Source: Desulfobulbales bacterium
Lineage (GTDB): Bacteria; Desulfobacterota; Desulfobulbia; Desulfobulbales; JAGXFP01
Assembly: GCA_029210665.1 (NCBI GenBank)
Contig: JARGFN010000002.1
Location: 1 to 38,961 of the forward strand
DNA length: 38,961 bases
Direction of reading: 5' to 3'
Below are positions 15,407-34,704 of the stretch, piece by piece. Under the pieces are notes generated by a model, which was not told the origin of the DNA, did not search any database, and saw only the letters and a program-made list of their open reading frames with translations. Within the stretch, counting starts at the first letter, position 1. Every line of letters begins with the position of its first letter. The position numbers were made by a program, and so were the translations under genes.

Positions 15407-16654
15407 ATGCTTGCCGGCGCCAACCGGGTCGCGATAACCGGCATGGGCATTGTCTCCTGCCTGGGCCTGAACCGGGACGAAGTCAAGCAAGCCCTGCTCG
15501 AAGGGCGTTGCGGCCTGGAATTTCTTCCGGAACGCAAAAAACTCGGCTTTCAAAGCGGCCTGAGCGGGGTGATCAAAAATTTCGACTCCAAAAAAATCCT
15601 CGACCGCAAAAAGCGTAAAACCTTGCCGGAATTTGGCCTCTGGGCCTGGACCGCCATCGAAGAGGCCCTGGATCAGGCCGGCCTCGAACCGGACATCCTC
15701 CATGGCGATGTTGAGACCGGCATGGTCTTCGGTAACGATTCGTCGGCGGTTACCGCCGTCGAGCAAGTCGATATTCTGCGAAAAACCGGGGAGACCAGGA
15801 GCATCGGCAGCGGTCATATCTTCCGGCTCCTGAACAGCACCGTCACCCTGAACATCGGCACCATTCTCGGTTTGCACGGCCAGGTCTGGACGGTCAGCGG
15901 CGCCTGCGCCAGCGGCGCCATGGCGATCGGCCAGGGGGCCGAACTGATTGCAGCCGGCAGACAGAAAAGGGTGATCTGCGGCGGCGCCCAGGAGATCTCC
16001 TGGCAGTCGATGTGCAGCTTCGACACCCTGGCCGCCTTTTCCCGCCGCGAAAACGATCCGCCTTCCGCCTCCAGGCCCTTTGACCGGGACCGGGACGGAT
16101 TGGTGCCGAGCGGCGGGGCGGCGACGGTGATCCTCGAATCTTATGAGGAGGCCGAAAACCGGGGGGCGGTCATTCTGGGTGAGGTTATGGGCTACGGCAA
16201 CACCAGCGACGGCCACCATATCGTGATTCCCAGCGGCGAAGGTCTGGAAAGGGCCATGCGCCAGGCCATTGCCGATGCGGGCCTGAATCATGCCGACATC
16301 GATCTGGTCTTGGCCCACGCCACTTCGACCCCGGCCGGCGACGAAGCCGAGGGCCGGGCCCTCGCCAATATCTTCAAACCGAGTTCCACCGGTCCCGGTC
16401 CGCTCATCACCGCCACCAAGGCCTTAACGGGGCATGAGTTCTGGATGGCGGGCGCTTCCCAGGTCATCTACGGAATGCTGATGGCCGAAGACAAATTCGT
16501 GGTCGGCAACCGCAACCTCGAAAACCCCGACAACTCGATAAAGAACTTGCGTTTACCCACCCGGAATGTTTATACTAATTCCCTTTTTTTGCTCTGTAAC
16601 GCGGCAGGTTTCGGCGGCACCAACGCGTCCCTGGTAATAAAAAATCACCGGTGA
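15407..16654 (+). CDS. beta-ketoacyl-ACP synthase (KAS I/II-type), KS-1
   Basis: 415 aa. The N-terminus is 'VAITGMGIVSCLG'. The Cys-His-His triad motifs are 'VSGACASGAMAIG', 'LAHATSTPAGD' and 'ALTGHEFWMAGA', and the C-terminus carries 'GFGGTNASLVI'. Confidence 0.9.
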   Translation: MLAGANRVAITGMGIVSCLGLNRDEVKQALLEGRCGLEFLPERKKLGFQSGLSGVIKNFDSKKILDRKKRKTLPEFGLWAWTAIEEALDQAGLEPDILHGDVETGMVFGNDSSAVTAVEQVDILRKTGETRSIGSGHIFRLLNSTVTLNIGTILGLHGQVWTVSGACASGAMAIGQGAELIAAGRQKRVICGGAQEISWQSMCSFDTLAAFSRRENDPPSASRPFDRDRDGLVPSGGAATVILESYEEAENRGAVILGEVMGYGNTSDGHHIVIPSGEGLERAMRQAIADAGLNHADIDLVLAHATSTPAGDEAEGRALANIFKPSSTGPGPLITATKALTGHEFWMAGASQVIYGMLMAEDKFVVGNRNLENPDNSIKNLRLPTRNVYTNSLFLLCNAAGFGGTNASLVIKNHR

Positions 16655-16705: not shown

Positions 16706-18226
16706 TTGTCTTCACGGAAGATCGACACCATTGTCATCGGCAGCGGCATAAGCGGCCTGACCGTTGCCGGATTGCTGGCCAAAAACGGCCGGCGAGTCGT
16801 TATCGTAGAGCGGAACCGGAAACCCGGCGGCGCCCTGAGACGTTTCACCAGGGACGGCATTCCGTTCGACATCGGCTTTCACTACACGGGCGGCCTCGGC
16901 CGGGGACAGATTCTCGATGTCCTCTGGAGATATCTGGGGGTGAGGCCCGAAATCACCCCGGTGCCGATGCATCCAGACGGCTACGATTATTTCAGATTCC
17001 GCGCATCGGGAACCGAGGTCAGGGCTTATTATTCGTACGAAAGGGCCGGGGAGCAGATGTGCGCGGTTTTCCCTGATGAAGCGGCCGGAATCGCCCGCTA
17101 TCTGGGGACGATCAAAAATATCTGCGGGAAAATTCCTTTTTACGACCTGGACCTGCCCTTGTCCCCTTTTCTGCGAGATTTTTTCAGTTCCCAGGACCGC
17201 CCCTTGCCCGAGGCGATCGCCTCAATGGTTAAAAACCCGGAACTGCAAGCGGTTCTGGCCGCTCCCGCCTTCCTTTACGGGGTGCCGCCGGCAAAGGCCG
17301 GTCTGACCATGCATGCGGCCGTGGCCCATAGTTATTATCAGGGCGCCTGGGGCATCCGGGGCGGCGGCCAGGCGGTAGTGGACGGTTTTCTGAAAACATT
17401 GACCGGGCATGGGGTAGAAATTCTCACCGGCCAAGGAGTGGAGAAAATCGAGGTCGGTAACGGTTGCATAAACGGCGTCACCCTCGCCGACCGTCGGCGG
17501 ATTCCGGCCGGGCAGGTGATATATACCGGCCACCCCGCCCATCTGCCCGATCTGGTTACGCCGGGAAGCTTCCGGCCGGCCTTTACTCATCGAATCAAGG
17601 GACTGGAAGATACGATTTCAATGTTTACGGTTTTCGGCAGGATGAACCGCCCTGCCGCTCTGCCGGCATTGGACCGGGCCAACCTGTACTGTATCAACCG
17701 GGGTTTCGACCTGATGGCTGATCCGGCGGCGGTCGGAAACGGCTCCGTGTTATTGACCGCACCGGGCCGTCGTGACCTGAATGCATTTGATGACGATAGA
17801 CGGAGCGGCGATGGAGTCATTCTGATGCGCCCGGCGAACTGGAGCGAAACGGCGAGGTTCTCCAGGGAAAACTCAAGGACACGGGGCGCCGGTTACCGGG
17901 AATGGAAAACCGCCGCCACAAAAAATTTAATCGAACGAGCCGCCGCCGGTTTCGGCGAGGGATGTCTTGGAATTGAGCCCCTGGCCGCGGGCTCGCCCTT
18001 GACCTTCAGAGATGAACTGGGCTCTCCGGCGGGGGGGATATACGGCGTGCAGCACAACCTGCAGCAATTCGTGGCCCGGGCCAGGACCAAGGTGCAAGGC
18101 CTGTACCTGAGCGGCCAGGGTTCCTTGATGACGGGGCTCCTCGGCGCCTCGATGGCAGGGCTGGTTACGGCCGGCGAAATCATGGGCCTCGAAGAGACCT
18201 GGGACAAGGTCAGAAAATGGCAGTGA
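16706..18226 (+). CDS. FAD/NAD(P)-dependent oxidoreductase, phytoene-desaturase (CrtI)-like family
   Basis: 506 aa with the dinucleotide fold 'DTIVIGSGISGLTVAGLLAKNGRRVVIVERNRKPGG'. Length and C-terminal block (GLYLSGQGSLMTGLLGA) fit COG1233-type enzymes. The start is TTG with a GAGG SD 8 nt upstream. Confidence 0.8.
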   Translation: MSSRKIDTIVIGSGISGLTVAGLLAKNGRRVVIVERNRKPGGALRRFTRDGIPFDIGFHYTGGLGRGQILDVLWRYLGVRPEITPVPMHPDGYDYFRFRASGTEVRAYYSYERAGEQMCAVFPDEAAGIARYLGTIKNICGKIPFYDLDLPLSPFLRDFFSSQDRPLPEAIASMVKNPELQAVLAAPAFLYGVPPAKAGLTMHAAVAHSYYQGAWGIRGGGQAVVDGFLKTLTGHGVEILTGQGVEKIEVGNGCINGVTLADRRRIPAGQVIYTGHPAHLPDLVTPGSFRPAFTHRIKGLEDTISMFTVFGRMNRPAALPALDRANLYCINRGFDLMADPAAVGNGSVLLTAPGRRDLNAFDDDRRSGDGVILMRPANWSETARFSRENSRTRGAGYREWKTAATKNLIERAAAGFGEGCLGIEPLAAGSPLTFRDELGSPAGGIYGVQHNLQQFVARARTKVQGLYLSGQGSLMTGLLGASMAGLVTAGEIMGLEETWDKVRKWQ

Positions 18227-19446
18227 ACAGGGTGGTCATAACCGGTCGCGGGGCGGTCTCACCCCTTGGGATCGGAGTTGCCGAGCTTATCGAAGCGGTC
18301 TGGCAGGGTCGTTCCGGCGTCAAGCTCATGGATGAGTGGCGGCAAATCAAGGGGATGCGGGCTCTCACTGCGGCCCCCGTCCCCAAGACCGATGCGAAAT
18401 CCCTATTACCCAGGTCAATGCGGAGAACCATGGGAGACATGGCCATCCATGCCACCCTCGCCGCCCGCGAAGCCGTGGAAGACGCCGGGCTTTCCGCCGA
18501 CCTTCTCGGCTCGGGACGGGTCGGCGTCGCCATCGGTTCGACCACCGGCAGCCCGGCGGCCTACGAAACCTTTTATGAAAAATTCCTTGCCGAACGTTCC
18601 ATCGAAGAGCTAAAATCCGGCTTCTTTTTCAAGATTATGAGCCACAGCTGCGCCGCCAATGTCTGCCTTGCCCTCGGTATTACCGGTGAGCAATGGTCGC
18701 CGGCCAGCGCCTGCAGTTCCTCGGCCCAGGCTATGGGTCTGGGCTACATGCTGATCAAGAGCGGTCGCCAGGATGTCGTGCTCTGCGGCGGAGCCGACGA
18801 AGTCCACCATTCGGTGACCATGGTTTTCGATGTCCTGAAAGCGGCTTCCCGCAACCATGCTCAACCCTTGGTCACCCCAAGGCCATTCGATATTGATCGG
18901 GACGGCGTGGTTTGCGGCGGCGGCGGCGGCATCCTGGTTCTGGAAAGTCTGGAAGGCGCGGAAGCGCGGGGCGCGAAAATCCATGGCGAAATTCTGGGAT
19001 TCGGTCATATTAACGATTGCAGCCATATCGCCAACCCTCATTCGAACAGCATGTCGGCCGCCATGCGGGCCGCCTTGCAGGAAGCGGGGGTTGCCGGAAG
19101 CGAAATAGACTATGTCAACGCCCATGCCACCGGCACCCCGCAAGGCGATATCGCCGAAGCCGGCGCCATACTTAAAACGGTCGGCAGTAAGGTGCCGGTC
19201 AGTTCTTTCAAGGGTCATATCGGCCATACCCTGGGGGCCGCCGGAGCGCTTGAAACGATCATAATGCTGGAAATTATGCACAGGCAGGAGATCATCCCCA
19301 CCCTGAACCTTGAAAATCCCGATCCGCAATGCGGCGCCATCGCCCTGCCTCGGGAAATTGTCCCGCGAAAGATTGACCTGATGATAAAAAACAACTTTGC
19401 CCTGGGCGGTGTCAACACCTCCCTGGTATTCCAGAGGTGGCATTAA
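18217..19446 (+). CDS. beta-ketoacyl-ACP synthase II-type, KS-2
   Basis: 409 aa carrying 'VVITGRGAVSPLG', 'PASACSSSAQAMG', 'NAHATGTPQGD', 'KGHIGHTLGAAGALE' and 'LGGVNTSLVF'. Its ATG overlaps the upstream stop (ATGGCAGTGA). Confidence 0.9.
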   Translation: MAVNRVVITGRGAVSPLGIGVAELIEAVWQGRSGVKLMDEWRQIKGMRALTAAPVPKTDAKSLLPRSMRRTMGDMAIHATLAAREAVEDAGLSADLLGSGRVGVAIGSTTGSPAAYETFYEKFLAERSIEELKSGFFFKIMSHSCAANVCLALGITGEQWSPASACSSSAQAMGLGYMLIKSGRQDVVLCGGADEVHHSVTMVFDVLKAASRNHAQPLVTPRPFDIDRDGVVCGGGGGILVLESLEGAEARGAKIHGEILGFGHINDCSHIANPHSNSMSAAMRAALQEAGVAGSEIDYVNAHATGTPQGDIAEAGAILKTVGSKVPVSSFKGHIGHTLGAAGALETIIMLEIMHRQEIIPTLNLENPDPQCGAIALPREIVPRKIDLMIKNNFALGGVNTSLVFQRWH

Positions 19447-19701
19447 ATGCTGACAGACAAGGAAATTCAGCAGCGGATAACCGAGGTTATCTCCGAGGAA
19501 TTCGAGCTTGAACCCTCCCGACTCGTTCCCGGCGCCACCCTCTACGATGATCTGGGCCTTGACAGTCTCGACGCCGTCGACATGGTAGTGGCACTGGAAA
19601 AATCGTTTGGCATCAAACTCGCCAATGAAGAAGCCATCAAAGCGGTCCGGACCATGGACGACCTTTGCCGGCTGATCATCAATCTCAAAAAAGAAAACTG
19701 A
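19447..19701 (+). CDS. acyl carrier protein, ACP-1
   Basis: 84 aa with the phosphopantetheine site 'LGLDSLDAVDMVVALE'. Its ATG directly follows the KS-2 TAA. Confidence 0.9.
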   Translation: MLTDKEIQQRITEVISEEFELEPSRLVPGATLYDDLGLDSLDAVDMVVALEKSFGIKLANEEAIKAVRTMDDLCRLIINLKKEN

Positions 19702-19711: not shown

Positions 19712-20530
19712 GTGAACCTGAACAAGTTTTTACTGAACATATACTACTGGCCGATGTTTCTTCTGGTAACCATTTTGGCTTTCCTGAGCGCGCCGCTCCT
19801 GCTGATCGGCAACCTGATGTTGCCCGGACATCCCATTGCCCGGACAATCCGGCAGGGTATCAGGATTTACGGCTGGGTGCTGATCCGGCTGGTGCCCTTC
19901 ATGGCGCCGGTCGTCCTCGAAGATCGCTCGGGCGGTTTCGAGGAACCGGTCATCTTCACTCCCAACCACAGCTCTTCCGCCGATCCCTATCTTTTCGGGC
20001 TGGTGCCGGTGGAAAACGCCTTTGTCACCTCCTGGCCTTTTCATATCCCCTTTTATAATTTTTTCATGCACCTGGCCGGCTATGTCAATTCGACCAGGGG
20101 GTGGCAACATGTCCAGAAAAAAGGCAGGGAATTGCTCGACTCAGGATGCTCGCTGATTATCTGGCCGGAGGGTCACCGCACCCGGACCGGCCGCCTGGGC
20201 AGATTCAAGAACGGCGCCTTTCGACTGGCCCTGGCCACCGGCAGACCGATTGTACCGGTCTGCATTATCGGCTCCCGCCGGGTGCTTCCCCCGGGCCGTT
20301 TTTTTCTGAGCCCGGCCCGGGTCAGGATCATCCTCCTGCCGACAATCACCCCGGCCGGCAAGGCCGACAACCCCGAGGACATAAAAAACCTGAAAGATAA
20401 ATCAAAAAAGTGCATAGACGAGGAACTGCAAAAACATCGGTCCAGCACGGCCGCTTCCGCGGCAAACCGGACCAGCCCATTATCATTTGCCGTCGGCCCC
20501 GGGAAAGAACCGGGCCGCAGCTGCTCCTGA
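19712..20530 (+). CDS. lysophospholipid/1-acylglycerol-3-phosphate acyltransferase (PlsC-like)
   Basis: It has an N-terminal TM segment, the HX4D motif 'NHSSSADP' and 'IIWPEGHRTRTG'. The start is GTG (alternative ATG at 19751). The C-terminal tail is low-complexity. Confidence 0.8.
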   Translation: MNLNKFLLNIYYWPMFLLVTILAFLSAPLLLIGNLMLPGHPIARTIRQGIRIYGWVLIRLVPFMAPVVLEDRSGGFEEPVIFTPNHSSSADPYLFGLVPVENAFVTSWPFHIPFYNFFMHLAGYVNSTRGWQHVQKKGRELLDSGCSLIIWPEGHRTRTGRLGRFKNGAFRLALATGRPIVPVCIIGSRRVLPPGRFFLSPARVRIILLPTITPAGKADNPEDIKNLKDKSKKCIDEELQKHRSSTAASAANRTSPLSFAVGPGKEPGRSCS

Positions 20531-20534
20531 ACCG

Positions 20535-21845
20535 ATGTCTGCTCGTTTCGACCTGAATAAAGCCCTTGCCTTCCGAACGGCGGACCCGGCTGAACTTGCC
20601 GATCGACAGAATCCCCTGCTGCAAGCCCATCTTCGCCAGGCCCTCAAAACCTCTTTTTACCAGGAGTTATTCGCCCGCATCGGCTGCCTTCCCGAGGAGA
20701 TCAACCTGGGGAACCTAACCTCGTTGCCGCTCACCTCCAGGCACGATGTCGAGGCGAACCCCGAAGCGTTTTTCGCCGTTCCCCCTGAAATGCAGGCTGA
20801 CCTGGCGCTGACTTCGGGATCGACCGGCGCTCCGGTTCTGGTTCCCTATACCGCCCTTGATCTGGAACGATTGGCCTTTAATGAGCGGATGAATTTTCAC
20901 GGGGCCGGGGTTAATAAAAATGATCGCTTCCTGCTGTGCGTGACCCTCGATCGCTGCTTTGTCGCCGGGCTCGCCTACTATACCGGTCTGGTCGGCCTCG
21001 GCGCTTCCTGTATCCGTAGCGGGCCGGGCCAGCCGGCCCGGCAATGGGAATTGATCGACCGCCTGCGCCCTTCGGGACTGGTCGGGGTTCCCTCTTTTCT
21101 TTTGAAAATGGCGCAATGGGGGAAAAGGCACGGGTATAACCCGGGGAAAAATGGTATAAGCTCCCTGGTTACGATCGGAGAACCGGTCCGGCGGGCCGAC
21201 AACTCCCTGACCCCCCTTGGTCGTGAACTCGAAGAAGCCTGGCATGGCCGGGTTTTTTCCTCTTACGGGGCCACCGAACTGGAAACGGCCTTCTGCGAAT
21301 GCACGGCCGCCGCCGGCGGCCATGTTCATCCGGAACTGATGATCGCCGAGATCGTCGACGAGGCAGGCAATTCCGTTAAACCCGGCGAACCGGGCGAAGT
21401 GGTGGTTACCCCACTGGGTGTCGAAGGTTTTCCGCTGGTCCGTTTCCGGACCGGGGATATCGCCCGCCTCCACACCTCTCCATGCCGATGCGGCTGGCGA
21501 ACCGCGCGACTCGGTGCGATCGAGGGACGCCTGGCCCAACGCCTCAAGGTCAAGGGCACCACCATTTACCCGGAAATGATCTTTCAGGCCCTGCAGGAAC
21601 TGCCGGAAATATCATGTTGTTATCTTGAAGTAAGGTCGGCCTATGATCTCTCCGACCAGATCCATATCGTTATCGGAATGGATGACCCGGCAACGGTTGA
21701 GCTCGGCCGAATCAGCGATCATCTCCAGGCCCGGCTGCGGGTCAAACCGGAAATAACCGTCCAGGCCAGGGATGTGGTCCAGGAGACCATGGAACAATCC
21801 GGCGGACGCAAATTAAAACGCTTTTTCGATTTTCGTGGTAAGTGA
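20535..21845 (+). CDS. adenylate-forming enzyme, phenylacetate-CoA ligase (PaaK)/F390 synthetase-like
   Basis: The AMP-binding P-loop 'LTSGSTGAPVLVPYT' and 'YGATELE' are present, and the ~437 aa size is typical of the PaaK-like family. The ATG at 20535 lies 4 nt after the upstream stop; the ORF-track start at 20487 overlaps the acyltransferase. Confidence 0.8.
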   Translation: MSARFDLNKALAFRTADPAELADRQNPLLQAHLRQALKTSFYQELFARIGCLPEEINLGNLTSLPLTSRHDVEANPEAFFAVPPEMQADLALTSGSTGAPVLVPYTALDLERLAFNERMNFHGAGVNKNDRFLLCVTLDRCFVAGLAYYTGLVGLGASCIRSGPGQPARQWELIDRLRPSGLVGVPSFLLKMAQWGKRHGYNPGKNGISSLVTIGEPVRRADNSLTPLGRELEEAWHGRVFSSYGATELETAFCECTAAAGGHVHPELMIAEIVDEAGNSVKPGEPGEVVVTPLGVEGFPLVRFRTGDIARLHTSPCRCGWRTARLGAIEGRLAQRLKVKGTTIYPEMIFQALQELPEISCCYLEVRSAYDLSDQIHIVIGMDDPATVELGRISDHLQARLRVKPEITVQARDVVQETMEQSGGRKLKRFFDFRGK

Positions 21846-21850
21846 CAGGT

Positions 21851-22891
21851 ATGAAATGTTTTGGTGAACACTGGGGACTTGAGTTTTCCCAAGAAGAAAT
21901 TGCCGCGGCCCTGGCCAGAGACGGGTTGCTTTCCATGGAACTGGAACTCTCCAGGGCCTGCAACCTGCGTTGTATCTATTGCTATGCCGAGTCGGGCGTG
22001 CCGATGGCCAACGAGCTCAGCCTCGATGAAATTTTCAGGGCCGTCGACCAGGCCGTGGAGCTGGGCGCCCGGAAAATCATCATCCTCGGCGGCGGCGAAC
22101 CGACCCTTTACAAGGACCTTTTCAAGGTAATCGATTACATCCAGGCCAAAAAGGTCGAGGTCGATGTCTTCACCAACGGCATGCTGATCGACCGGGACAA
22201 GGCCGAGGCGCTCTACGCGCGCAAGGTCTCGGTGGTGGTCAAGATGAACAGCCGCGACCCGGAGATCCAGGATATGCTGGCCGGCCACCCCGGCGCTGCC
22301 GCCGCCATCAACAAAGGCTTAAAGGCCCTGATGGACGCCGGTTATCCCGACGAGGACCATACCCTGGGCATCGAAACCATCATCTGCCGGCAGAACTACG
22401 CCGAGCTGGCCGACCTGTGGATCTGGGCGCGAAAGCAGAACATCATCCCCTATATCGAGATGATGACCCTCCAGGGCCGGGCCACGGAACATCCCGATCT
22501 TGAAGTGCCGATCAATGAAGTAAAGACCCTCTTTGAGAAGCTGGCCGAGATCGACCGGGAGATGTTCGACAGCCACTGGACCCCCCACCCGCCCCTGGCC
22601 GCCTCCCAATGCGCCCGGCATGAATATTCCTGCACGGTAACCGCCAACGGCGACGTCCAGCCCTGTCCGGGGGTCAGCGTCCCCGCCGGCAATATCCGGG
22701 AGCAGCCCCTGGCCGAGATCCTCAAGAAAAGCACCCCGATCCAGGAGCTTCGCAATATCAGGAAGATAATCAAGGGACGCTGCGGAGAATGCCGGTTCGG
22801 CGATTACTGCTACGGCTGCCGCGGCCACGCCTATCAGGTTACCGGCGATTACCTGGCCGAGGATCCCCTTTGCTGGCTGGACCATAAATAG
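21851..22891 (+). CDS. radical SAM enzyme with C-terminal SPASM-type auxiliary-cluster domain
   Basis: The CX3CX2C motif is 'CNLRCIYCYA'. The C-terminus is Cys-rich ('CARHEYSCTVTANGDVQPCPG' and 'GRCGECRFGDYCYGCRGHAY'). An alternative GTG at 21842 overlaps the upstream stop (GTGA). Confidence 0.85.
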   Translation: MKCFGEHWGLEFSQEEIAAALARDGLLSMELELSRACNLRCIYCYAESGVPMANELSLDEIFRAVDQAVELGARKIIILGGGEPTLYKDLFKVIDYIQAKKVEVDVFTNGMLIDRDKAEALYARKVSVVVKMNSRDPEIQDMLAGHPGAAAAINKGLKALMDAGYPDEDHTLGIETIICRQNYAELADLWIWARKQNIIPYIEMMTLQGRATEHPDLEVPINEVKTLFEKLAEIDREMFDSHWTPHPPLAASQCARHEYSCTVTANGDVQPCPGVSVPAGNIREQPLAEILKKSTPIQELRNIRKIIKGRCGECRFGDYCYGCRGHAYQVTGDYLAEDPLCWLDHK

Positions 22892-22919
22892 GCGCTCATT
22901 TACCCGGCATGGTTAACGA

Positions 22920-24215
22920 ATGAAAATCCTTCTGGTCAACCCCCCCAACAGCGGCAAAAGCATCCCCGAGGAAAGATACGGGATCAACTCGATCAAGCAG
23001 ATCTTCCGCGGCGAGCCCCTGGCCCTGGAGGTACTGGCCGGAAACTTGCGCGATTTCGAGGTCAGAATCGTCGACCTCAAGGCCGCCCCCGACTCCCTGC
23101 CCGAAGTCCTGGCAGAGTTTCGCCCCGATCTGGCCGGCATCACCGGGGTGACCTGCGAGGCCAATTCGGTCCTGAAACTGGCCGCCGAAATCAAGGAGAG
23201 CTGCGGGGCCGTGATCGTGGTCGGCGGAATCCACGCCTCCAACGATCCCGAGTTTTTTAACCGTGCCGGGATCGACTATGTGGTAATCGGCCTCGGCAAG
23301 GCGAGCTTCCGGGAACTGGCCCTGGCCTTGCGGGACTCCAAAAAAGGATGCGCTATTCCCGGGGTGGCCCCGGTCGGCCCGGGCCGCCCCCTGCAATACA
23401 CTTTGAGACAATTCTCGGCGGCGGACCTCGGCGACGACTTGCCGCCCGCCTATGAGCTGGTCGAGCAGTACCGTTCGAGCTATTATCTTGCCGGCTTGAA
23501 GCTCGACATGGGTTTCGTGGTCACCGCCTTCGGCTGCCCGTTCAACTGCTCCTTCTGCTGCATCGGCGGCCTGACCGGCGGCCGTTACCTTACCCACGAC
23601 ACCGAGGCGGTGATTCGCGATATCAAGATGCTCGGCGATATTCCGGTGGTCCGGCTCCTCGATGCCAACACCTTCGGCGATCCGCAACATGCCGAACGGC
23701 TTTGCGAGGCGATCCGGGAGGCCGGTATCGACAAGCAGTTCCTCGCCGACGTCCGTTCCGACACGGTGGTCAACCACCCTGAACTGATGCAGAAATGGAA
23801 GGATGCCGGCCTGCGGGCCGTGATCATCGGTTTCGAGGAGATCAGCGACGAAGGATTGCAGAAGATGAACAAGGCCAATCTGGCCGCGGTCAATACCGAA
23901 TCGATCGCCATTCTCCACGAGATCGGCATTACGATCATCGGCGACTTCATCGTCTCCCCGGACTACGGGCAGGATGATTTCGACCGGTTGGGCGAATACA
24001 TCGGCGCGAACAAGGTTGATTTGCCGATGATTACGGTAATGACCCCCCTGCCCGGCACCAAACTGCACCGGGAGATACGGGACCGAATCACCATCGACGA
24101 TCTCGATTACTATACCCTGACCAACGCCGTCGTCCCGACCCGGCTGGCCGAGGAGAGCTTTTACCGCAATTACGCCGCCCTGCTCCGGGAAGGCCATGCC
24201 GGGGCAAAACTTTAG
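22920..24215 (+). CDS. B12-binding-domain radical SAM enzyme (class B type), rSAM-B1
   Basis: The N-terminus is Rossmann-like ('MKILLVNPP...VVGGIHAS') and is followed by the CX3CX2C motif 'FGCPFNCSFCCIG'. Confidence 0.85.
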   Translation: MKILLVNPPNSGKSIPEERYGINSIKQIFRGEPLALEVLAGNLRDFEVRIVDLKAAPDSLPEVLAEFRPDLAGITGVTCEANSVLKLAAEIKESCGAVIVVGGIHASNDPEFFNRAGIDYVVIGLGKASFRELALALRDSKKGCAIPGVAPVGPGRPLQYTLRQFSAADLGDDLPPAYELVEQYRSSYYLAGLKLDMGFVVTAFGCPFNCSFCCIGGLTGGRYLTHDTEAVIRDIKMLGDIPVVRLLDANTFGDPQHAERLCEAIREAGIDKQFLADVRSDTVVNHPELMQKWKDAGLRAVIIGFEEISDEGLQKMNKANLAAVNTESIAILHEIGITIIGDFIVSPDYGQDDFDRLGEYIGANKVDLPMITVMTPLPGTKLHREIRDRITIDDLDYYTLTNAVVPTRLAEESFYRNYAALLREGHAGAKL

Positions 24216-24230: not shown

Positions 24231-25379
24231 ATGGAAGCCTACATTACCGACATCGCCGCTTATCTGCCCAACCAACCGGTTTCAAACGAGGAGATGGAAA
24301 GGGTTCTCGGTTTGGTCAACGATCTGCCCTCCAGAACCAAGAAGATCATTCTGCGCAATAACGGGATCAAGCAGCGCTACTACGCGATCGATCCGGCCAC
24401 CGGCCGGACCACCCACACCAATGCCCGGCTCGCCGCCGAGGCGGTCAAAAGGCTGAACCCCTATGAGGGCTTCAAGGTTTCCGATATCGAACTGTTAAGC
24501 TGCGGTACCTCGGCCCCGGATCAGTTCATGCCGGGCCACGCCTCCATGGTCCACGGCGAGGTCGGCGGCGCCGCATGCGAAGCGGTCAGCACCGCCGGGA
24601 TCTGCCTTGCCGGAATCAGCTGCCTGAAATACGCCTGCATGAGCGTCGCCCTGGGCCTGACCGCAAACGGCGTGGCCACCGGCTCCGAGCAATCCTCGTC
24701 CTTTATGAGATCGAGGATGTGCGGCACGATCGACCCGCGACGCGTCGAACAGCTCGAAAAGCAGCCCGCCCTGGCCTTCGAGGCGGATTTTTTGCGCTGG
24801 ATGCTCTCCGACGGGGCCGGGGCCGTGTTCATCGCCCCGAAACCCGCCGCCGGCCGGCTCAATCTGAAAGTGGACTGGATTGAGATCATCTCCCATGCCG
24901 ACGAGATGGAAACCTGCATGTACGCCGGGGCGGTCAAGAACAACGACGGGACGATCACGGGCTGGCGGGAGTTCGCTTCGCTGCGGGAATCGGTCGAGGC
25001 CAATTCCCTGCTGGTCAAACAGGACGCCAAACTGCTGAACAGCGAAATAATTCCGGTGGTGGTAAGCCGCTCGCTGCCCAGATACATCGAGAAATACGGC
25101 CTCAAAGCCGAAGGGATCGACTGGTTCCTGCCCCATTACTCGTCCGACTACTTCCGCCACATCATCTACGACCACCTCAAAGAGATCGATTTCGAAATCC
25201 CCGAAGAACGCTGGTTCTCGAATCTGGCCGAAAAGGGCAACACCGGCTCCGCCTCGATCTATATCATTCTGGAAGAAATTTACCGGTCCGGAAAACTAAG
25301 GAAAGGCGATCGCCTGCTCTGCTTCATCCCCGAAAGCGGCCGCTTTTCGGTCGGCTACATGATGCTGACCGTGGTCTGA
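24231..25379 (+). CDS. 3-oxoacyl-ACP synthase III (FabH-like) family condensing enzyme
   Basis: 382 aa. The Cys region is 'STAGICLAGISC', the His region is 'FLPHYSS' and the Asn region is 'KGNTGSASIYI'. An AGGAA SD lies upstream. Confidence 0.8.
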   Translation: MEAYITDIAAYLPNQPVSNEEMERVLGLVNDLPSRTKKIILRNNGIKQRYYAIDPATGRTTHTNARLAAEAVKRLNPYEGFKVSDIELLSCGTSAPDQFMPGHASMVHGEVGGAACEAVSTAGICLAGISCLKYACMSVALGLTANGVATGSEQSSSFMRSRMCGTIDPRRVEQLEKQPALAFEADFLRWMLSDGAGAVFIAPKPAAGRLNLKVDWIEIISHADEMETCMYAGAVKNNDGTITGWREFASLRESVEANSLLVKQDAKLLNSEIIPVVVSRSLPRYIEKYGLKAEGIDWFLPHYSSDYFRHIIYDHLKEIDFEIPEERWFSNLAEKGNTGSASIYIILEEIYRSGKLRKGDRLLCFIPESGRFSVGYMMLTVV

Positions 25380-25717: not shown

Positions 25718-25757
25718 AAAAAAAAGCCGGTCAACAATCTGTTAATTGTTGACCGGC
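25718..25757 (-). terminator. Rho-independent terminator of the minus-strand operon
   Basis: The minus strand reads GCCGGTCAACAAT-taacag-ATTGTTGACCGGC followed by TTTTTTTT. That is a 13-bp perfect stem, a 6-nt loop and a U8 tail, 110 nt downstream of the ACP-2 stop. Confidence 0.8.
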
Positions 25758-25866: not shown

Positions 25867-26148
25867 TTATTTATTTTTTTCCGCGTTTGCCCTGACAAAA
25901 TCGGCCAGGCTTTCAAGACTGGCCAGAACCTTGCGGCTGGTCTCCTCCGAATCTATCCTGACCCGATAGCGATTCTGGACGGTGAAGACGATTTCCACCG
26001 CGTCGAGGGAATCGATATCGAGGGGCGACTCGGGGCCGATCAAGGGCGCCGCCGGGGAGATATTCTCCGGAACGACATCTTTGATCTTGCAGACCTCGCA
26101 GATCATCTTCAGCAATTCTTTCTCCAGTTCATCCATCGGAAACTCCAT
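25867..26148 (-). CDS. acyl carrier protein, ACP-2
   Basis: 89-93 aa with 'PLDIDSLDAVEIVFTVQ' (DSL phosphopantetheine site). The alternative ATG at 26136 has a GGAG SD 7 nt upstream. Confidence 0.85.
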   Translation of the reverse strand: MEFPMDELEKELLKMICEVCKIKDVVPENISPAAPLIGPESPLDIDSLDAVEIVFTVQNRYRVRIDSEETSRKVLASLESLADFVRANAEKNK

Positions 26149-26162: not shown

Positions 26163-27482
26163 TCAAGGTGCGCGCCTGGTAAAAACCAGCCAGGCCCCCA
26201 GGACGGTCAGCAAGGCAAAGGAGAGGAGCAGAACCACTTCTCCGGTTGCGGCGGCCAGGCCGCCCCCCCTGACAAAGATATCCAGAAACGCCTCCAGCCC
26301 CCAGCCCAGGGGGGAAATAACACTTATTTTCTGCATGATTTCCGGCATGGCGTAAACCGGTACCATGACTCCACCGATGGCCGAAGCGGCCACCACCGAA
26401 ATCGAACCGAACATGGAAGCCTGTTCGTAGGTGCGGCAGATGGTTCCCAGCAATATTCCGTAGCCGGCGGCCGCCAGGGAGGCCGCGGCCACCACCGGCA
26501 AGGCCCCGCCCCATTGCGGCCCCAGCCGAAAGGGCTCGATCCCCAGAGCCGGCAACAGGAACCGGCCGAGCAGATAAATCAGGCCAAACTGGGCGAAACA
26601 GACCAGGACAAAAGACATCACCTTGCCGGCCAGCACTGCCGAATAGGCCACCGGCATGCTGCGCAGGCGGGTCAGGGTTTCTTCCTGCCGTTCCCTGATC
26701 AGGGAACCGGCCATCGGCACCACAATAAAAAACATCCCGAAAAGGGCCCAGGCCGGCACGTTATGCTGGGTCGGAGTCGGCACCGCCGCCAGTGCGCCGC
26801 CGATCGAAGCCGAGCCTGAGCGAACCGTCAGCAGCGGCTCGGCAGGTATCTCGATCGCGAAAGCCGGAACCTCGACATATTCGGCAAAATCACCGGCCGA
26901 TTTCTTCAGTTCTTCTTCAATATACTCCGGCAACAACCTCGAAAGCGCCGCCATTTTGGCTTCGATCTCGAACTCCATCAGCACCAGGGCCAGTCCATTT
27001 CGCAGCGATGACCTGAAGCCCCCCATCACGGTGGGATCAAAAAGGATCTCCAGCTCCGGCACCGGCGCAGCCCCGGCGCCGTCACCGTCACCGTCCCCCA
27101 GCAGGGAATTCCTGACTTCGGCCAGAACCCCGGCCCGGAGCCGCCGGGTGGTCTCCTCCCGGATGACGATAGCTGCCTGGTAATCTCCGGACGCCGCCAA
27201 TTCCCGCCCCCGCTCCTCGGTAACCTCGGCACCGTCGATAGCGGTAACCAGTTCCATCCCGGACAGGCGCTTGCTGAGCAAGCTCCCCAGCTCATCCCGG
27301 TCCAGGTCGACCAGGATAATCCGGGCCGAGGTCTCGCCCATCAACTTGTAGACATTATCCTGGACCAGGGTAATGATCACCACCAGCACGGCGGGCATCA
27401 CGAAGAGCAGCAACAGTCCGGCCCGGTCCCGCCAGAGCAGGAGAATATCCTTGATCAGGGTTGCGATAAGTTTGCGGATCAT
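26163..27482 (-). CDS. ABC-2-type transporter permease with large N-terminal extracytoplasmic loop
   Basis: 439 aa. One N-terminal TM helix is followed by a ~190-aa soluble loop (including a GDGDGDGAGA linker) and then about 5 C-terminal TM helices. It lies 6 nt downstream of the ATPase gene. Confidence 0.8.
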   Translation of the reverse strand: MIRKLIATLIKDILLLWRDRAGLLLLFVMPAVLVVIITLVQDNVYKLMGETSARIILVDLDRDELGSLLSKRLSGMELVTAIDGAEVTEERGRELAASGDYQAAIVIREETTRRLRAGVLAEVRNSLLGDGDGDGAGAAPVPELEILFDPTVMGGFRSSLRNGLALVLMEFEIEAKMAALSRLLPEYIEEELKKSAGDFAEYVEVPAFAIEIPAEPLLTVRSGSASIGGALAAVPTPTQHNVPAWALFGMFFIVVPMAGSLIRERQEETLTRLRSMPVAYSAVLAGKVMSFVLVCFAQFGLIYLLGRFLLPALGIEPFRLGPQWGGALPVVAAASLAAAGYGILLGTICRTYEQASMFGSISVVAASAIGGVMVPVYAMPEIMQKISVISPLGWGLEAFLDIFVRGGGLAAATGEVVLLLSFALLTVLGAWLVFTRRAP

Positions 27483-27488
27483 GTCGCG

Positions 27489-28253
27489 CTAGTCCCGCAG
27501 CTTGCGGCCGGTCAGGGAAAAAAACAGGTCCCGCAGGGTGGCATGGCCGCCGCTTTTGATAAGTTCCGCCGGATTGCCCTGGACCAGGACCCGGCCGCCG
27601 TCCATGACCGCCACCTCCGAGCAGAGCCGTTCCGCCTCTTCCATGTAATGGGTGGTGTAGACCATGGTCGTCCCCTGTTTATTGAGGGCGAGCAGCCGGG
27701 CAAGGATCATGTCGCGGGACTGGGCGTCGATCCCGACCGTCGGCTCGTCGAGGAAGAGCAGCTTCGGCCGGTGCAGGATGCCGACCGCCAGATTGACCCG
27801 CCGCTTCATGCCGCCCGAATAGCTGTCCACCCGTTGCGCGGCCTTCGGCAGCAGGCCGACAAAATCGAGACACTCCTCGACCCGCTCGGTCAAGGCCCGG
27901 CCGTGCAAGCCATAAAGCCTGCCGAAATAATTAAGGTTCTCGCGGCCGGTAAGCTGCCGATACAGGGCGATTTCCTGGGGAACCAGGCCGATCAGCTCTT
28001 TGACTTCTCCGGCCCGATGCCCGGTATCGCGGTTGAAGATCGTCACCGTCCCTTGACTGGGCCTGAGCAGGGTGCTCATAATCGAGATCGCCGTGGTCTT
28101 CCCCGCCCCGTTCGGTCCCAGCAGACCGAAAATATCGCCCTCGCCGATTTCGACACTGAATCCGTCCAGGGCCGGCCTCTCGCCGCCCCGGTAGATTTTG
28201 ATCAGTCCCGAAGCCTGGATGGCCAGGGGGCGGGCGTGATTATTCCCCGTCAC
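27489..28253 (-). CDS. ABC transporter ATP-binding protein (ABC-2/DrrA-like)
   Basis: Walker A is 'GLLGPNGAGKTT', the signature is 'YSGGMKRR' and Walker B is 'LLFLDEPTVGID'. The start is uncertain. I place it at the in-frame GTG at 28253, overlapping the rSAM stop by 14 nt, because the ATG at 28352 lies deep inside the upstream gene. Confidence 0.8.
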   Translation of the reverse strand: MTGNNHARPLAIQASGLIKIYRGGERPALDGFSVEIGEGDIFGLLGPNGAGKTTAISIMSTLLRPSQGTVTIFNRDTGHRAGEVKELIGLVPQEIALYRQLTGRENLNYFGRLYGLHGRALTERVEECLDFVGLLPKAAQRVDSYSGGMKRRVNLAVGILHRPKLLFLDEPTVGIDAQSRDMILARLLALNKQGTTMVYTTHYMEEAERLCSEVAVMDGGRVLVQGNPAELIKSGGHATLRDLFFSLTGRKLRD

Positions 28254-30816: not shown

Positions 30817-31283
30817 GCCAACTTTCCATCTTGCCAGTGCCGCCGGAATTCCCCGATCCAGGCCGGCGGAATCAACAGCAACGAACCCTTCAAATCGGTA
30901 AAAAGCTGGACCGTATATGCCTTTAGCGCCGTAGTACCGTCAGCCCGGGCGATCATGTAGGAATAATTCAACCGCAGGGCATTGGTCCAGTGCAGGGTGG
31001 TTTCGATTCGCATCACCTCATCGAAAAAAAGCGGCGCCTGATAATCAATATGCAGCTGGACAACCGGGGCCGCCACCCCCTCCTCCCGCAGCCGGCCATA
31101 ACTTACCGCCGGATATCGATCGCCGAACGCCACCCGGCCGTCATCGAGGAAACTCACATAATGGCCGTGCCAGACAATCCCCAGCATATCGACCTCCTCG
31201 AAGCGCACCCGGCGCTCGGTTTGGACGGAGAGCCCCGGGGGATCTTCCGGATCGGCGGCAAAATAGGTTTTGGCAAAAGCCAT
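30813..31283 (-). CDS. 4HBT/YbgC-like hot-dog acyl thioesterase
   Basis: 156 aa with 'RVRFEEVDMLGIVWHGHYVSFL', typical of YbgC/FadM-type thioesterases. A GGAG SD is present. Confidence 0.75.
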   Translation of the reverse strand: MAFAKTYFAADPEDPPGLSVQTERRVRFEEVDMLGIVWHGHYVSFLDDGRVAFGDRYPAVSYGRLREEGVAAPVVQLHIDYQAPLFFDEVMRIETTLHWTNALRLNYSYMIARADGTTALKAYTVQLFTDLKGSLLLIPPAWIGEFRRHWQDGKLA

Positions 31284-31290: not shown

Positions 31291-31677
31291 TCAGCCCCTT
31301 ACTCTGAAAATAATTGTGCCGGCGGCAACCACCGCTTTCTGTTTTTTCAGCTTGAAAACCGCCTGCCACTCCTCAGCGACCTTTTCAAGCTCGACCCGGA
31401 TATTGATTCTTTCGTCGGGCATGATCATCCCCTTGAACTTCAGTCTGCCGGTTCGGACAATTTCCAGATCGGTTTCGAGAAGATCGGCGGCGATCAACCT
31501 CACGAAAACCAACTGGATCACGGCGGGCAGCACCGGCTGACCGGGGAAATGGCCGGAGAAGGGGGGGAAATCGGCCGGGCAGCAAAATTCGGCGGAAGCG
31601 GTCCGGCGATCCCGATCAAACCGCCGGGTTTCGACAACCTTTCTGAATAGGTCTAAGGAATTATCGCTGCATTTCAT
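31291..31677 (-). CDS. FabA/FabZ-like hot-dog dehydratase, DH-1 (His present)
   Basis: 128 aa with 'FSGHFPGQPVLPAV', matching the FabZ 'GHFPxxPxxPG' catalytic-His motif. Confidence 0.75.
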   Translation of the reverse strand: MKCSDNSLDLFRKVVETRRFDRDRRTASAEFCCPADFPPFSGHFPGQPVLPAVIQLVFVRLIAADLLETDLEIVRTGRLKFKGMIMPDERINIRVELEKVAEEWQAVFKLKKQKAVVAAGTIIFRVRG

Positions 31678-31708
31678 ATCATATACTTGTTGAATATCTT
31701 TTCATCTA

Positions 31709-34698: not shown

Positions 34699-34704
34699 AT
34701 CCGG

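What the first reader, a model, noticed from the sequence alone, without database searches (positions are those of the whole stretch)
21842..24215. SPASM-type and B12-type radical SAM genes in tandem, coupled to the adenylating enzyme, with no peptide substrate in sight
Seen in the sequence:
- The 349-aa protein has 'CNLRCIYC' plus a C-terminal Cys-rich SPASM-like region ('CGECRFGDYCYGCRGH'). Its GTG overlaps the stop of the PaaK-like gene.
- It is followed 28 nt later by a B12-binding rSAM ('FGCPFNCSFCC').

Established knowledge:
- SPASM enzymes usually act on peptides or proteins (RiPP maturases, anSME) or on tetrapyrroles.
- Class B (B12) rSAMs methylate or rearrange unactivated carbons.

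No credible small precursor ORF lies near these genes. The only small genes are the two ACPs.

Inference: the substrate is probably ACP-tethered or lipid-bound, or the ACP itself. That would be an unusual context for a SPASM enzyme.
Basis: partly seen in the sequence, partly recalled or inferred. Interest (0 to 1): 0.7.

Follow-up and report, generated by a model that had tools for sequence, protein, structure and literature searches.

The report
Two radical SAM genes in a polyene-lipid cluster
The two adjacent radical SAM genes are real, but they belong to two separate modules of one pigment-lipid (aryl-polyene plus dialkylresorcinol type) gene cluster of an anaerobic sulfur bacterium: the first always travels with the acid-activating enzyme and the fatty-acid-like chain-building genes, and the second takes the place of the usual ring-aromatising enzyme next to the resorcinol-forming synthase.

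Summary
Observation confirmed: a SPASM radical SAM gene (21851/21842-22891) and a B12-binding radical SAM gene (22920-24215) lie in a nine-gene operon (15407-25379). No precursor-peptide gene is present.

The setting is a type II PKS cluster of the aryl-polyene/flexirubin kind. It has 3 KS, 2 ACP, KR, ApeI/ApeP-like dehydratases, a thioesterase, LolA, MMPL and a FlxY-like ligase, plus a DarB ketosynthase. It is a relative of the "ladderane-like" clusters described in 2009 in Kuenenia and Desulfotalea.

The tandem is a junction of two modules.
- **SPASM enzyme.** A FlxY-like ligase lies directly upstream in 69 of 71 genome loci. In 21 of 150 family representatives it is fused to an ApeP-type dehydratase. 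This supports a carrier-protein-tethered, non-peptide substrate.
- **B12 enzyme.** It follows the SPASM gene in only 17 of 70 loci, but it always precedes DarB, also in genomes without the SPASM gene. Among 105 DarB loci, 48 have this enzyme upstream, 45 have a DarA homologue, and none has both.

The B12 enzyme therefore most likely replaces the DAR aromatase, or otherwise processes DarB's product. The chemistry of both enzymes remains untested.

Verdict: a new variant of a known kind; moderately interesting and directly testable.

The parts
15407..16654 (+). KS1, FabB/FabF-like ketosynthase; first gene of the 9-gene operon
   Evidence: NCBIfam FabB 342.8 bits and FabF 303 bits, below cut-offs. 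Conserved in the cassette. Promoter-like site at 15337-15366.
16706..18226 (+). FAD-dependent CrtI/phytoene-desaturase-like oxidoreductase
   Evidence: TIGR02734 crtI_fam 102 bits, below cut-off. Pfam Amino_oxidase 71 bits. Conserved in the cassette.
18217..19446 (+). KS2 ketosynthase
   Evidence: NF006587 403.9 bits. Conserved in the cassette.
19447..19701 (+). ACP1 (DSL motif)
   Evidence: NF003757 78.2 bits, above the cut-off of 65. Sequence.
19712..20530 (+). PlsC/LPLAT-type acyltransferase (ApeD-like position)
   Evidence: Pfam Acyltransferase 70.3 bits.
20535..21845 (+). FlxY/PaaK-like adenylating enzyme. The ORF opens at TTG 20487, but the likely start is ATG 20535.
   Evidence: NF053551 FlxY 407.5 bits (cut-off 520). 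PaaK models score 127-174 bits. Lies directly upstream of the SPASM gene in 69 of 71 loci.
21851..22891 (+). SPASM-domain radical SAM enzyme (346 aa from the ATG; 349 aa from GTG 21842)
   Evidence: Fused to ApeP-like dehydratase in relatives.
22920..24215 (+). B12-binding (class B) radical SAM enzyme 'B12a', the upstream partner of DarB
   Evidence: B12a-DarB adjacency. Either/or pattern with DarA.
24231..25379 (+). StlD/DarB-family ketosynthase (dialkylresorcinol/cyclohexanedione-forming)
   Evidence: NF005293 563.3 bits, above the cut-off of 450. NF053539 DarB 472.2 bits, below its cut-off of 550.
25726..25757 (-). Terminator-like hairpin (14-bp stem plus T8) after ACP2, between the convergent operons
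25867..26148 (-). ACP2 (DarC-like position)
   Evidence: Pfam PP-binding. NF006617 53.6 bits. Travels with B12a-DarB.
26163..28352 (-). ABC-2 permease (26163-27482) and ABC ATPase (27489-28352); DarI/DarF-like
   Evidence: Translations. Same module in L081/L082 and in the Azoarcus dar cluster (PMC3949708).
28240..29709 (-). Third radical SAM enzyme 'B12b' (B12-binding; HpnJ/BchE-like)
   Evidence: HpnJ 184 bits and BchE 175 bits, below cut-offs. Conserved in many related loci.
29710..31283 (-). KS3 (KS/CLF-like, 29710-30816) and YbgC-type thioesterase (30813-31283)
   Evidence: Collinear with L089/L092.
31291..32293 (-). ApeI-like dehydratase (31291-31677) and a 194-aa protein in the DUF3261/ApeN position (31709-32293)
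   Evidence: Pfam FabA 30.8 bits and ApeI-like 27.4 bits. Position matches L089.
32290..35364 (-). MMPL/RND exporter (32290-34698) and LolA-like carrier (34705-35364)
   Evidence: LolA2_flexi 95.6 bits, below its cut-off of 125.
35361..36563 (-). ApeP-like hot-dog dehydratase 'h151' (35361-35816) and FabG/FlxB-like ketoreductase (35835-36563)
   Evidence: h151 matches the C-terminal ApeP-like domain of the SPASM fusion proteins. FabG NF004200 286 bits, above the cut-off of 273.

Best explanation
Overall picture. The two radical SAM genes sit where two modules of one biosynthetic gene cluster meet. The cluster (about 15.4-36.6 kb) would make an outer-membrane-targeted lipid of the aryl-polyene/flexirubin type joined to a dialkylresorcinol-type unit. 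The host is a Desulfurivibrionaceae-like anaerobe.

Module 1: KS1-FAD-KS2-ACP1-AT-FlxY-SPASM.
- Inferred: the FlxY-like ligase adenylates a carboxylic-acid starter and loads it on ACP1.
- Inferred: the KS, KR and ApeI/ApeP enzymes extend it.
- Inferred: the SPASM enzyme acts on this carrier-tethered, non-peptide intermediate, alongside the ApeP dehydratase.
- Guess: the reaction is a radical two-electron oxidation (desaturation or oxidative decarboxylation), as in its nearest relatives AhbD/NirJ and anSME.

Module 2: B12a-DarB, with ACP2 and the ABC exporter on the other strand.
- Inferred: DarB condenses two acyl thioesters to a carboxy-cyclohexanedione.
- Inferred: the B12 radical SAM enzyme does what DarA does elsewhere, namely decarboxylative aromatisation to the resorcinol, or otherwise tailors that product.

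What is shown and what is not.
- Shown: gene content, synteny, gene fusions and the DarA/B12a either-or pattern.
- Inferred: every catalytic step.
For: Cluster type:
- DarB family is above its curated cut-off.
- FlxY, FlxB and LolA2 flexirubin models are the best hits.
- ApeI-like dehydratase, thioesterase, MMPL and a KS/CLF-like gene are present.
- The gene order is collinear with single-operon clusters in Nitrospirota and Omnitrophota: FabG-FAD-KS-ACP-AT-ligase-SPASM::ApeP-LolA-MMPL-DUF3261-ApeI-TE-KS.

SPASM enzyme:
- The ligase lies directly upstream in 65 of 71 loci by a strict test, and in 69 of 71 after inspection of split matches.
- The cassette is also found in Sumerlaeota.
- Ligase-SPASM pairs occur in L088 and L090.
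- 21 of 150 family representatives are fusions of SPASM with an ApeP-like dehydratase. Three of these add an ApeI-like domain and one adds LolA.
- 28 of the 120 best profile hits carry PF22817.
- No RRE domain and no conserved small ORF.

B12a enzyme:
- It follows the SPASM gene in only 17 of 70 loci. DarB follows B12a in 13 of 13 loci where the sequence extends far enough.
- The module B12a-DarB | ACP-ABC occurs without the SPASM gene in Desulfuromonas versatilis and in Syntrophotaleaceae.
- In a DarB-anchored metagenome sample, 25 loci have B12a upstream, 42 have a DarA homologue, and none has neither.
- Over all 105 DarB loci the counts are 48 B12a, 45 DarA and 12 not visible; no locus listed shows both.
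- DarA homologues are in L043 and L046 only. None is in the window.
- The Azoarcus dar cluster has darA exactly where B12a sits (PMC3949708).
- DarA aromatases act on carboxy-CHD (PMC6836626).
Against: General: there are no biochemical data for either family.

SPASM enzyme:
- Fusion to ApeP could simply reflect gene adjacency.
- L042 (SPASM-B12a-DarB with no ligase) and L078 (no ligase) are exceptions.
- A 47%-identical relative sits with an ATP-grasp enzyme, a carrier protein and three more rSAMs.
- Relatives at 33% identity are fused to TIR-GAF, ABC or ferredoxin domains. Function may therefore vary within the family.
- The nearest curated models are tetrapyrrole enzymes, and all score far below their cut-offs.

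B12a enzyme:
- Its best model is a C-methylase (HpnR, 164 bits), not an oxidase.
- DarA itself occurs in the anaerobe Desulfurivibrio, so the absence of oxygen does not explain the swap.
- B12a-linked DarBs mostly form their own clades, so their product may differ.
- The DarA reference was identified by position only. No curated model hits it.
Confidence: 0.6

Rival explanations
1. The SPASM enzyme makes or prepares the starter acid rather than acting on the growing chain. One possibility is that it turns an arylpropionyl or other precursor, free or bound to the ligase or ACP, into the unsaturated or aromatic starter that tyrosine ammonia-lyase, XanB2 or UbiC supply in aerobic aryl-polyene, xanthomonadin and flexirubin pathways.
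For: - It is always next to the ligase, even in minimal ligase-SPASM pairs.
- No TAL-, XanB2- or UbiC-like gene was found among the window's cluster proteins.
- Known pathways need such an enzyme (PMC3992019, PMC3949708).
- The nearest models, AhbD and NirJ, act on propionate side chains.
Against: - Widespread fusion to the chain-processing ApeP/ApeI dehydratases.
- The starter could come from primary metabolism encoded elsewhere in the genome, which was not visible here.
Confidence: 0.25
2. B12a is a cobalamin-dependent C-methyltransferase that decorates the cyclohexanedione/resorcinol ring or an alkyl chain. Aromatisation would then be spontaneous, absent (the product stays a cyclohexanedione), or done by another enzyme.
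For: - The best curated hit is the hopanoid C-3 methylase HpnR (163.9 bits).
- Most characterised class B rSAMs are methylases (established knowledge; PMC8950095 covers the class).
- DarB enzymes without an aromatase are known (PMC6836626).
Against: - There is a strict either/or with DarA at the same position (48 against 45 of 105 loci; no locus listed shows both). A pure decorating enzyme would be expected to co-occur with DarA at least sometimes.
- The score is far below the HpnR cut-off of 650.
Confidence: 0.3
3. The SPASM enzyme is a RiPP or protein maturase whose peptide substrate is encoded elsewhere, or it modifies the ACP itself. Its place in the lipid cluster would then be incidental.
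For: - Most characterised SPASM enzymes act on peptides.
- The best solved-structure matches are SkfB, SuiB, PqqE and anSME.
Against: - No RRE domain (about 36 aa N-terminal to the cluster motif).
- No conserved small ORF.
- Synteny with PKS genes is conserved across at least five phyla, and fusions to ApeP, ApeI and LolA occur.
- The structural matches are generic (TM about 0.6, 13-21% identity).
Confidence: 0.05
4. The SPASM enzyme is a spare copy of the heme enzyme AhbD or NirJ (housekeeping tetrapyrrole maturation) that merely happens to lie here.
For: The top NCBIfam hits are AhbD (160.8 bits), NirJ2, NirJ1 and NirJ.
Against: - All scores are far below the curated cut-offs (500-650).
- No heme genes are nearby.
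- The neighbourhood is PKS-type in 69 of 71 loci.
Confidence: 0.02

Closest known systems
'Ladderane-like' extended FASII clusters of Kuenenia stuttgartiensis (kuste3335-3352) and Desulfotalea psychrophila (Rattray et al. 2009, PMC2649909; Javidpour et al. 2016, PMC4790861)
   Same: - A PaaK-like ligase is followed by radical SAM genes (kuste3344-3343-3342).
- Both have a phytoene-desaturase-like enzyme, several FabF paralogues, ACPs, a membrane transporter and a glycosyltransferase.
- Sister loci of the window (for example Desulfotalea L060) carry the curated TIGR04072 'lipid biosynthesis B12 rSAM' (593.6 bits) a few genes after the SPASM gene.
- The enzymes are still uncharacterised (PMC13459092).
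   Different: - The window has no TIGR04072 member, glycosyltransferase or LpxL-type acyltransferase.
- Those genes are replaced by the B12a-DarB module, and the rest of the cluster is inverted.
- Orthology of the window's SPASM gene to kuste3343/3342 could not be tested, because no Kuenenia sequence was retrieved.
Aryl-polyene, flexirubin and xanthomonadin-DAR (arcuflavin) clusters (PMC3992019, PMC3949708)
   Same: - Type II PKS-like KS/CLF, KR and ApeI/ApeP dehydratases; thioesterase, acyltransferase, AMP-ligase, LolA and MMPL.
- A DAR module with DarB, ACP and ABC transporter.
   Different: - No TAL, XanB2 or SAM-methyltransferase in the cluster proteins scanned, and no DarA homologue in the window.
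- Instead there are three radical SAM enzymes and a CrtI-like flavoenzyme.
- The FlxY, FlxB and LolA2 models are best hits but score below their curated cut-offs.
AhbD / NirJ / AhbC (SPASM radical SAM enzymes of heme and heme d1 synthesis)
   Same: They are the best-scoring curated relatives. They have small-molecule rather than peptide substrates, a short N-terminus and a full SPASM cysteine set.
   Different: Scores are 101-161 bits against cut-offs of 500-650. The genomic context is different, and no tetrapyrrole genes are present.
DarA (StlC/BrtC) aromatase of dialkylresorcinol and stilbene pathways (PMC6836626)
   Same: B12a occupies DarA's position directly upstream of darB. It is mutually exclusive with DarA homologues.
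   Different: There is no sequence relationship. B12a is a cobalamin-domain radical SAM protein, whereas the DarA homologues show only a weak flavodoxin-like signal.
Lipid-modifying radical SAM enzymes Tes/Gms (SPASM), Jaw5 (HemN-like), HpnR, HpnJ and BchE (class B)
   Same: They are precedents for rSAM chemistry on lipid or polyketide chains and for anaerobic replacement of oxidative steps (PMC13459092).
   Different: None is a family match. All relevant models score far below their cut-offs.

Membership tests
SPASM-domain radical SAM subfamily | CX3CX2C radical SAM motif in a Radical_SAM domain | tested here: met
   C40, C44 and C47. Pfam PF04055 82.5 bits.
SPASM-domain radical SAM subfamily | C-terminal 7-8 Cys SPASM motif (CX9-15GX4C ... 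CX2CX5CX3C ... C) for two auxiliary [4Fe-4S] clusters | tested here: met
   C257-X12-G-X4-C275, C314-X2-C317-X5-C323-X2-C326 and C344, plus C264. All are invariant in 21 homologues. The last spacing is X2, not X3. PF13186 scores 39 bits against 21.5. Cluster binding itself cannot be tested here.
AhbD heme b synthase (TIGR04545) | Score at or above the curated cut-off (500 bits) | tested here: not met
   160.8 bits.
RiPP-maturase SPASM enzymes | RRE/PqqD-like recognition domain, or a partner protein, plus a precursor-peptide gene nearby | tested here: not met
   Only about 36 aa precede the rSAM motif. The only ORFs under 100 aa with family support are ACPs. Intergenic small ORFs are not conserved as peptides.
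Class B (cobalamin-binding) radical SAM | N-terminal B12-binding domain plus a radical SAM domain with CX3CX2C | tested here: met
   PF02310 62.9 bits, PF04055 54.1 bits, and C206, C210, C213. Cobalamin binding itself is not testable here.
HpnR hopanoid C-3 methylase (TIGR04367) | Score at or above 650 bits | tested here: not met
   163.9 bits. Some JGI records nevertheless name homologues 'hopanoid C-3 methylase'.
TIGR04072 lipid-biosynthesis (ladderane-type) B12 radical SAM | Score at or above 360 bits | tested here: not met
   B12a scores 49.7 bits and B12b 93.1 bits. The family is met by L060:12948-14300 in sister loci, at 593.6 bits.
StlD/DarB ketosynthase (NF005293) | Score at or above 450 bits, full length | tested here: met
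   563.3 bits over residues 3-382. The narrower DarB model NF053539 scores 472.2 bits against a cut-off of 550, so it is not met.
Canonical DarAB dialkylresorcinol system | darA aromatase gene adjacent to darB | tested here: not met
   No DarA homologue in the window at tblastn E<=10. B12a occupies the site.
Aryl-polyene-type type II PKS cluster | KS plus CLF-like KS, ACPs, KR, ApeI- and ApeP-like dehydratases, thioesterase, AMP-ligase, acyltransferase and a LolA/MMPL export set | tested here: met
   ApeP-like is assigned by similarity to the PF22817 domains of fusion proteins. The ApeI-like Pfam score is 27.4 bits, just under the cut-off of 28.5. There is no glycosyltransferase in the window.
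Flexirubin FlxY ligase (NF053551) | Score at or above 520 bits | tested here: not met
   407.5 bits, full-length alignment. Related, but not an equivalog.

The most novel reading that the evidence does not exclude
Two new enzyme activities may be hidden here.

(1) A cobalamin-domain radical SAM enzyme that replaces DarA and carries out the decarboxylative aromatisation of carboxy-cyclohexanediones. This reaction type is not known for class B rSAMs.

(2) A SPASM radical SAM family that works directly on ACP-tethered polyketide or polyene intermediates, in complex with the ApeP/ApeI dehydratase. If so, it would be the first SPASM enzyme of a type II PKS. It would also be a tractable model, in a cultivable host, for the never-expressed kuste3343/3342 enzymes invoked for ladderane-type chemistry.
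Probability: 0.3. Interest if true: 0.8.

Novelty: new variant of a known kind. Interest (0 to 1): 0.58.

Why it matters
**An open question.** Radical SAM genes inside FAS/PKS-like clusters of anaerobes have been an unsolved puzzle since 2006-2009. They are the candidate ladderane genes, and none has been expressed or assayed (PMC4790861, PMC10139942, PMC13459092).

**What this analysis adds.**
- It splits the tandem into two separately testable units.
- It gives the SPASM family a concrete set of partners: ligase, ACP1 and the ApeP dehydratase.
- It gives the B12 enzyme a concrete predicted substrate, DarB's carboxy-cyclohexanedione. The support is a clean either/or with DarA across 105 loci.

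**Why it is tractable.** Homologues exist in cultured strains (Desulfurivibrio alkaliphilus, Desulfopila, Desulfuromonas versatilis), so experiments are feasible.

**Annotation point.** Some automatic annotations name B12a homologues 'hopanoid C-3 methylase'. That name is probably wrong.

Tried and rejected
- **Rfam scan of the whole window:** no hits.
- **PDB sequence search, AlphaFold2 model (mean pLDDT 68.8) and Foldseek search:** only generic SPASM/twitch folds (SkfB, SuiB, MoaA, PqqE, anSME; TM about 0.6). These do not discriminate function.
- **Cluster-member look-up of ten family representatives:** no organism or product names of use.
- **Kuenenia/Desulfotalea orthology (kuste3343/3342, DP1853/1855):** The profile search listed a Planctomycetota member, but only on 2-3 kb contigs.
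- **Curated DarA model:** none found. DarA was therefore defined by position in a Burkholderia darABC-like locus. Pseudoalteromonas and Prevotella plasmid DarB loci did not help.
- **Conserved peptide upstream of KS1:** what looked like one turned out to be a repeated DNA element.
- **Lipoprotein genes next to DarB or ACP2 in other loci:** not conserved in the window.
- **Idea that the SPASM and B12a enzymes are an obligate pair:** rejected on synteny counts. The SPASM::B12-rSAM fusions involve other B12 rSAM types: P0248 is TIGR04072-type, and the B12 half of P0323 is only distantly (24%) B12b-like.

Full report
**1. Observation**

The ORFs 21842-22891 (349 aa) and 22920-24215 (431 aa) exist as described.

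The first protein has:
- the radical SAM motif C40-X3-C44-X2-C47;
- a full SPASM cysteine set (C257, C264, C275, C326 / C314, C317, C323, C344);
- Pfam Radical_SAM at 82.5 bits and SPASM at 39 bits.

All of these cysteines are invariant in 21 homologues.

The second protein has a B12-binding domain (62.9 bits) and a radical SAM domain with C206-X3-C210-X2-C213.

The gap between the two genes is 28 nt. The GTG at 21842 overlaps the ligase stop codon (GTGA). However, every homologue starts at the MKC/MSC that corresponds to the ATG at 21851. The real start is therefore probably 5 nt after the stop.

The nine genes from 15407 to 25379 are separated by -10 to +51 nt, so they form one operon. A promoter-like site lies at 15337-15366, and a strong hairpin at 25726-25757 separates the operon from the convergent one.

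**2. What the neighbourhood is**

Family scans give the following gene content.

On the + strand:
- KS1;
- a CrtI-like flavoenzyme;
- KS2;
- ACP1;
- a PlsC-type acyltransferase;
- a FlxY/PaaK-like ligase (flexirubin FlxY model 407.5 bits, PaaK models 127-174 bits);
- the SPASM enzyme;
- the B12 enzyme ("B12a");
- a StlD/DarB-family ketosynthase (563.3 bits, above the cut-off of 450).

On the - strand:
- ACP2;
- an ABC-2 permease and an ABC ATPase;
- a third radical SAM enzyme (B12b; HpnJ/BchE-like);
- a KS/CLF-like gene;
- a YbgC-type thioesterase;
- an ApeI-like dehydratase;
- a 194-aa protein;
- an MMPL exporter;
- a LolA-like protein (flexirubin LolA2 is the best hit);
- a 151-aa protein;
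- FabG (FlxB-like).

This is the parts list of an aryl-polyene/flexirubin-type type II PKS cluster with a dialkylresorcinol (DAR) module (PMC3992019, PMC3949708).

The window itself is 94-97% identical at the protein level to Desulfurivibrionaceae and Desulfobacterales MAGs.

**3. The SPASM enzyme belongs to the ligase/ACP cassette**

The SPASM protein reaches no curated family. Its best hits are AhbD at 160.8 bits (cut-off 500), then NirJ paralogues, TIGR04053 and MftC.

It is nevertheless a member of a large, very conserved family:
- 616 clusters at E<=1e-20;
- 315 representatives at 50% identity with E<=1e-30;
- 2115 clusters matching a family profile.

Eighty genome loci were fetched. Their synteny shows:
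- a FlxY-like ligase gene lies directly upstream in 65 of 71 loci by a strict test, and in 69 of 71 after inspection of split matches;
- the exceptions are L042 and L078;
- the cassette FAD-KS2-ACP1-AT-ligase-SPASM (usually preceded by KS1) is conserved in Desulfobulbia and in Sumerlaeota.

Family representatives show telling fusions:
- 21 of 150 are SPASM joined to a hot-dog domain that Pfam calls ApeP-like, which is homologous to the window's 151-aa protein;
- three of these add an ApeI-like domain;
- one adds LolA;
- one (P0248) is SPASM joined to a TIGR04072-type B12 rSAM.

In Nitrospirota, Omnitrophota and an unnamed metagenome contig the whole pathway is a single operon: FabG-FAD-KS-ACP-AT-ligase-SPASM::ApeP, followed in the first two by LolA-MMPL-DUF3261-ApeI-TE-KS and two B12-type rSAM genes and a GT. 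The order after the SPASM gene is the same as on the window's - strand. In the window, therefore, the cluster has been inverted at this point.

ApeP and ApeI act on ACP-bound 3-hydroxyacyl chains. The protein has only about 36 residues before the rSAM motif, which leaves no room for an RRE domain. No small ORF in the region is conserved as a peptide.

Taken together, a carrier-tethered, non-peptide substrate is the best-supported reading. Which reaction is catalysed is not shown. Two points suggest a two-electron oxidation (desaturation or oxidative decarboxylation), but this is a guess:
- the nearest relatives are AhbD/NirJ and anSME;
- the aerobic starter-forming enzymes (TAL, XanB2) are absent from the cluster.

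**4. The B12 enzyme belongs to the DarB module**

B12a follows the SPASM gene in only 17 of 70 loci. DarB follows B12a in all 13 of those loci where the sequence extends far enough.

In most other SPASM loci (Desulfotalea, Desulfopila, Desulfurivibrio) the SPASM gene is followed by a different set:
- two small genes;
- a degenerate B12-like protein;
- a true TIGR04072 "lipid biosynthesis B12 rSAM" (593.6 bits);
- a glycosyltransferase;
- an LpxL-type acyltransferase.

Conversely, homologues of B12a (63-65% identical) in Desulfuromonas versatilis and in a Syntrophotaleaceae MAG sit in the same module: B12a-DarB, then ACP, ABC permease and ABC ATPase on the other strand. These loci have no SPASM or ligase gene.

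This module matches the published Azoarcus dar cluster (darA, darB, darD, darE/BtrH, darF, darI, darC), except that B12a sits where darA sits (PMC3949708).

To test this, a DarA reference was taken from a Burkholderia darABC-like locus. It has 47%-identical homologues directly upstream of DarB in two Desulfurivibrio loci (L043, L046). It has none in the window or in any B12a-containing locus.

A DarB-anchored scan of metagenomes gave 80 loci. In the 67 where the upstream gene is visible:
- 42 have a DarA homologue;
- 25 have a B12a homologue;
- none has anything else, and none has both.

The partner type largely follows the DarB tree.

This is a textbook pattern of non-orthologous displacement. 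DarA-type enzymes aromatise carboxy-cyclohexanediones with decarboxylation (PMC6836626). The most economical inference is that B12a takes over that step, or otherwise processes DarB's product.

Caveats:
- B12a's best model is a methylase (HpnR, 164 bits, far below the cut-off of 650).
- DarA also occurs in an anaerobe, so oxygen is not the simple driver.
- The DarA reference is defined by position only.

**5. The tandem itself**

SPASM-B12a adjacency recurs: 24 of 43 B12a loci overall, but only 3 of 17 in the DarB-anchored sample, which is unbiased with respect to the SPASM gene.

In L088 the ligase-SPASM pair is convergent with the B12a-DarB module. In L042 the order is SPASM-B12a-DarB with no ligase.

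The two modules thus often share one cluster and presumably one pathway, but they are not an obligate enzyme pair.

**6. Relation to what is known**

The association of a "phenylacetyl-CoA ligase", two radical SAM genes, a phytoene-desaturase-like gene and FabF paralogues was described for Kuenenia (kuste3344-3343-3342) and Desulfotalea psychrophila in 2009 (PMC2649909). The two Kuenenia rSAM proteins could not be detected on expression in E. coli (PMC4790861). A 2026 review still lists the ladderane-associated rSAMs as uncharacterised (PMC13459092).

SPASM enzymes acting on lipids (Tes, Gms) are known. The context is therefore not unprecedented, but the family is unassigned.

I found no paper in the held library linking DarB to a B12 radical SAM enzyme.

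**7. Verdict**

- The thing is a new variant of a known kind of cluster.
- It yields two concrete, testable enzyme hypotheses.

Noticed in passing
window 15039-15256 (empty site at window 578-665): A 218-nt MITE-like element with perfect 13-nt terminal inverted repeats (CCTGAATCCGTGA / TCACGGATTCAGG), flanked by a duplicated TTACT. It is inserted into a sequence that occurs uninterrupted at 578-665. Further copies are in L002 (three copies), L003 and L005. No Rfam match.
   Followed up: partly
window 28240-29709 (-): A third radical SAM gene in the cluster (B12-binding; HpnJ 184 bits and BchE 175 bits, both below cut-off). It is conserved at 52-97% identity in many related loci, including Sumerlaeota, and its position varies.
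   Followed up: partly
L084/L085 10001-21077: A 47%-identical SPASM homologue heads a different uncharacterised cluster. Its genes are NusG-like, SPASM, ATP-grasp, two ABC-2 permeases, a 314-aa carrier protein, a PaaK-like ligase and three more radical SAM genes (two with B12 domains).
   Followed up: no
P0348, P0360, P0350, P0380 (family representatives, 33% identity): The SPASM domain of this family is also found fused to TIR-GAF-GAF, to GAF alone, to ferredoxin plus DUF3050, and to an ABC ATPase. These architectures suggest signalling- or defence-type roles for distant members.
   Followed up: no
window 10818-12986 (-) and 7476-8468 (-): A 722-aa U32-family protein has UbiU/TrhP-like (209 and 173 bits) and UbiV-like segments. 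It lies near a polyprenyl diphosphate synthase, and next to EpmA-like and putative EF-P genes. All scores are below the curated cut-offs.
   Followed up: no
window 961-5707 (-): A second HAE3/MMPL-type RND transporter (874 aa) lies outside the main cluster, together with two proteins (433 and 269 aa) that have no family match. An ArsR-type regulator is at 5821-6126.
   Followed up: no
window 36591-38882 (-): A CsgG/FlgO-like lipoprotein (391 aa) and a 369-aa protein with no family match lie directly after FabG. They may be part of the export or anchoring end of the cluster.
   Followed up: no
one search hit list: Several JGI records name B12a homologues 'hopanoid C-3 methylase' or 'YgiQ family'. 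The HpnR model scores only 164 bits against a cut-off of 650, and the genes sit next to DarB, so these names are probably wrong.
   Followed up: partly
L043:2450-3610 and L046 (Desulfurivibrio): The DarA-type gene upstream of DarB in these anaerobes has no Pfam or NCBIfam model and only a weak flavodoxin-like signal. DarA seems to lack a curated family in these libraries.
   Followed up: partly
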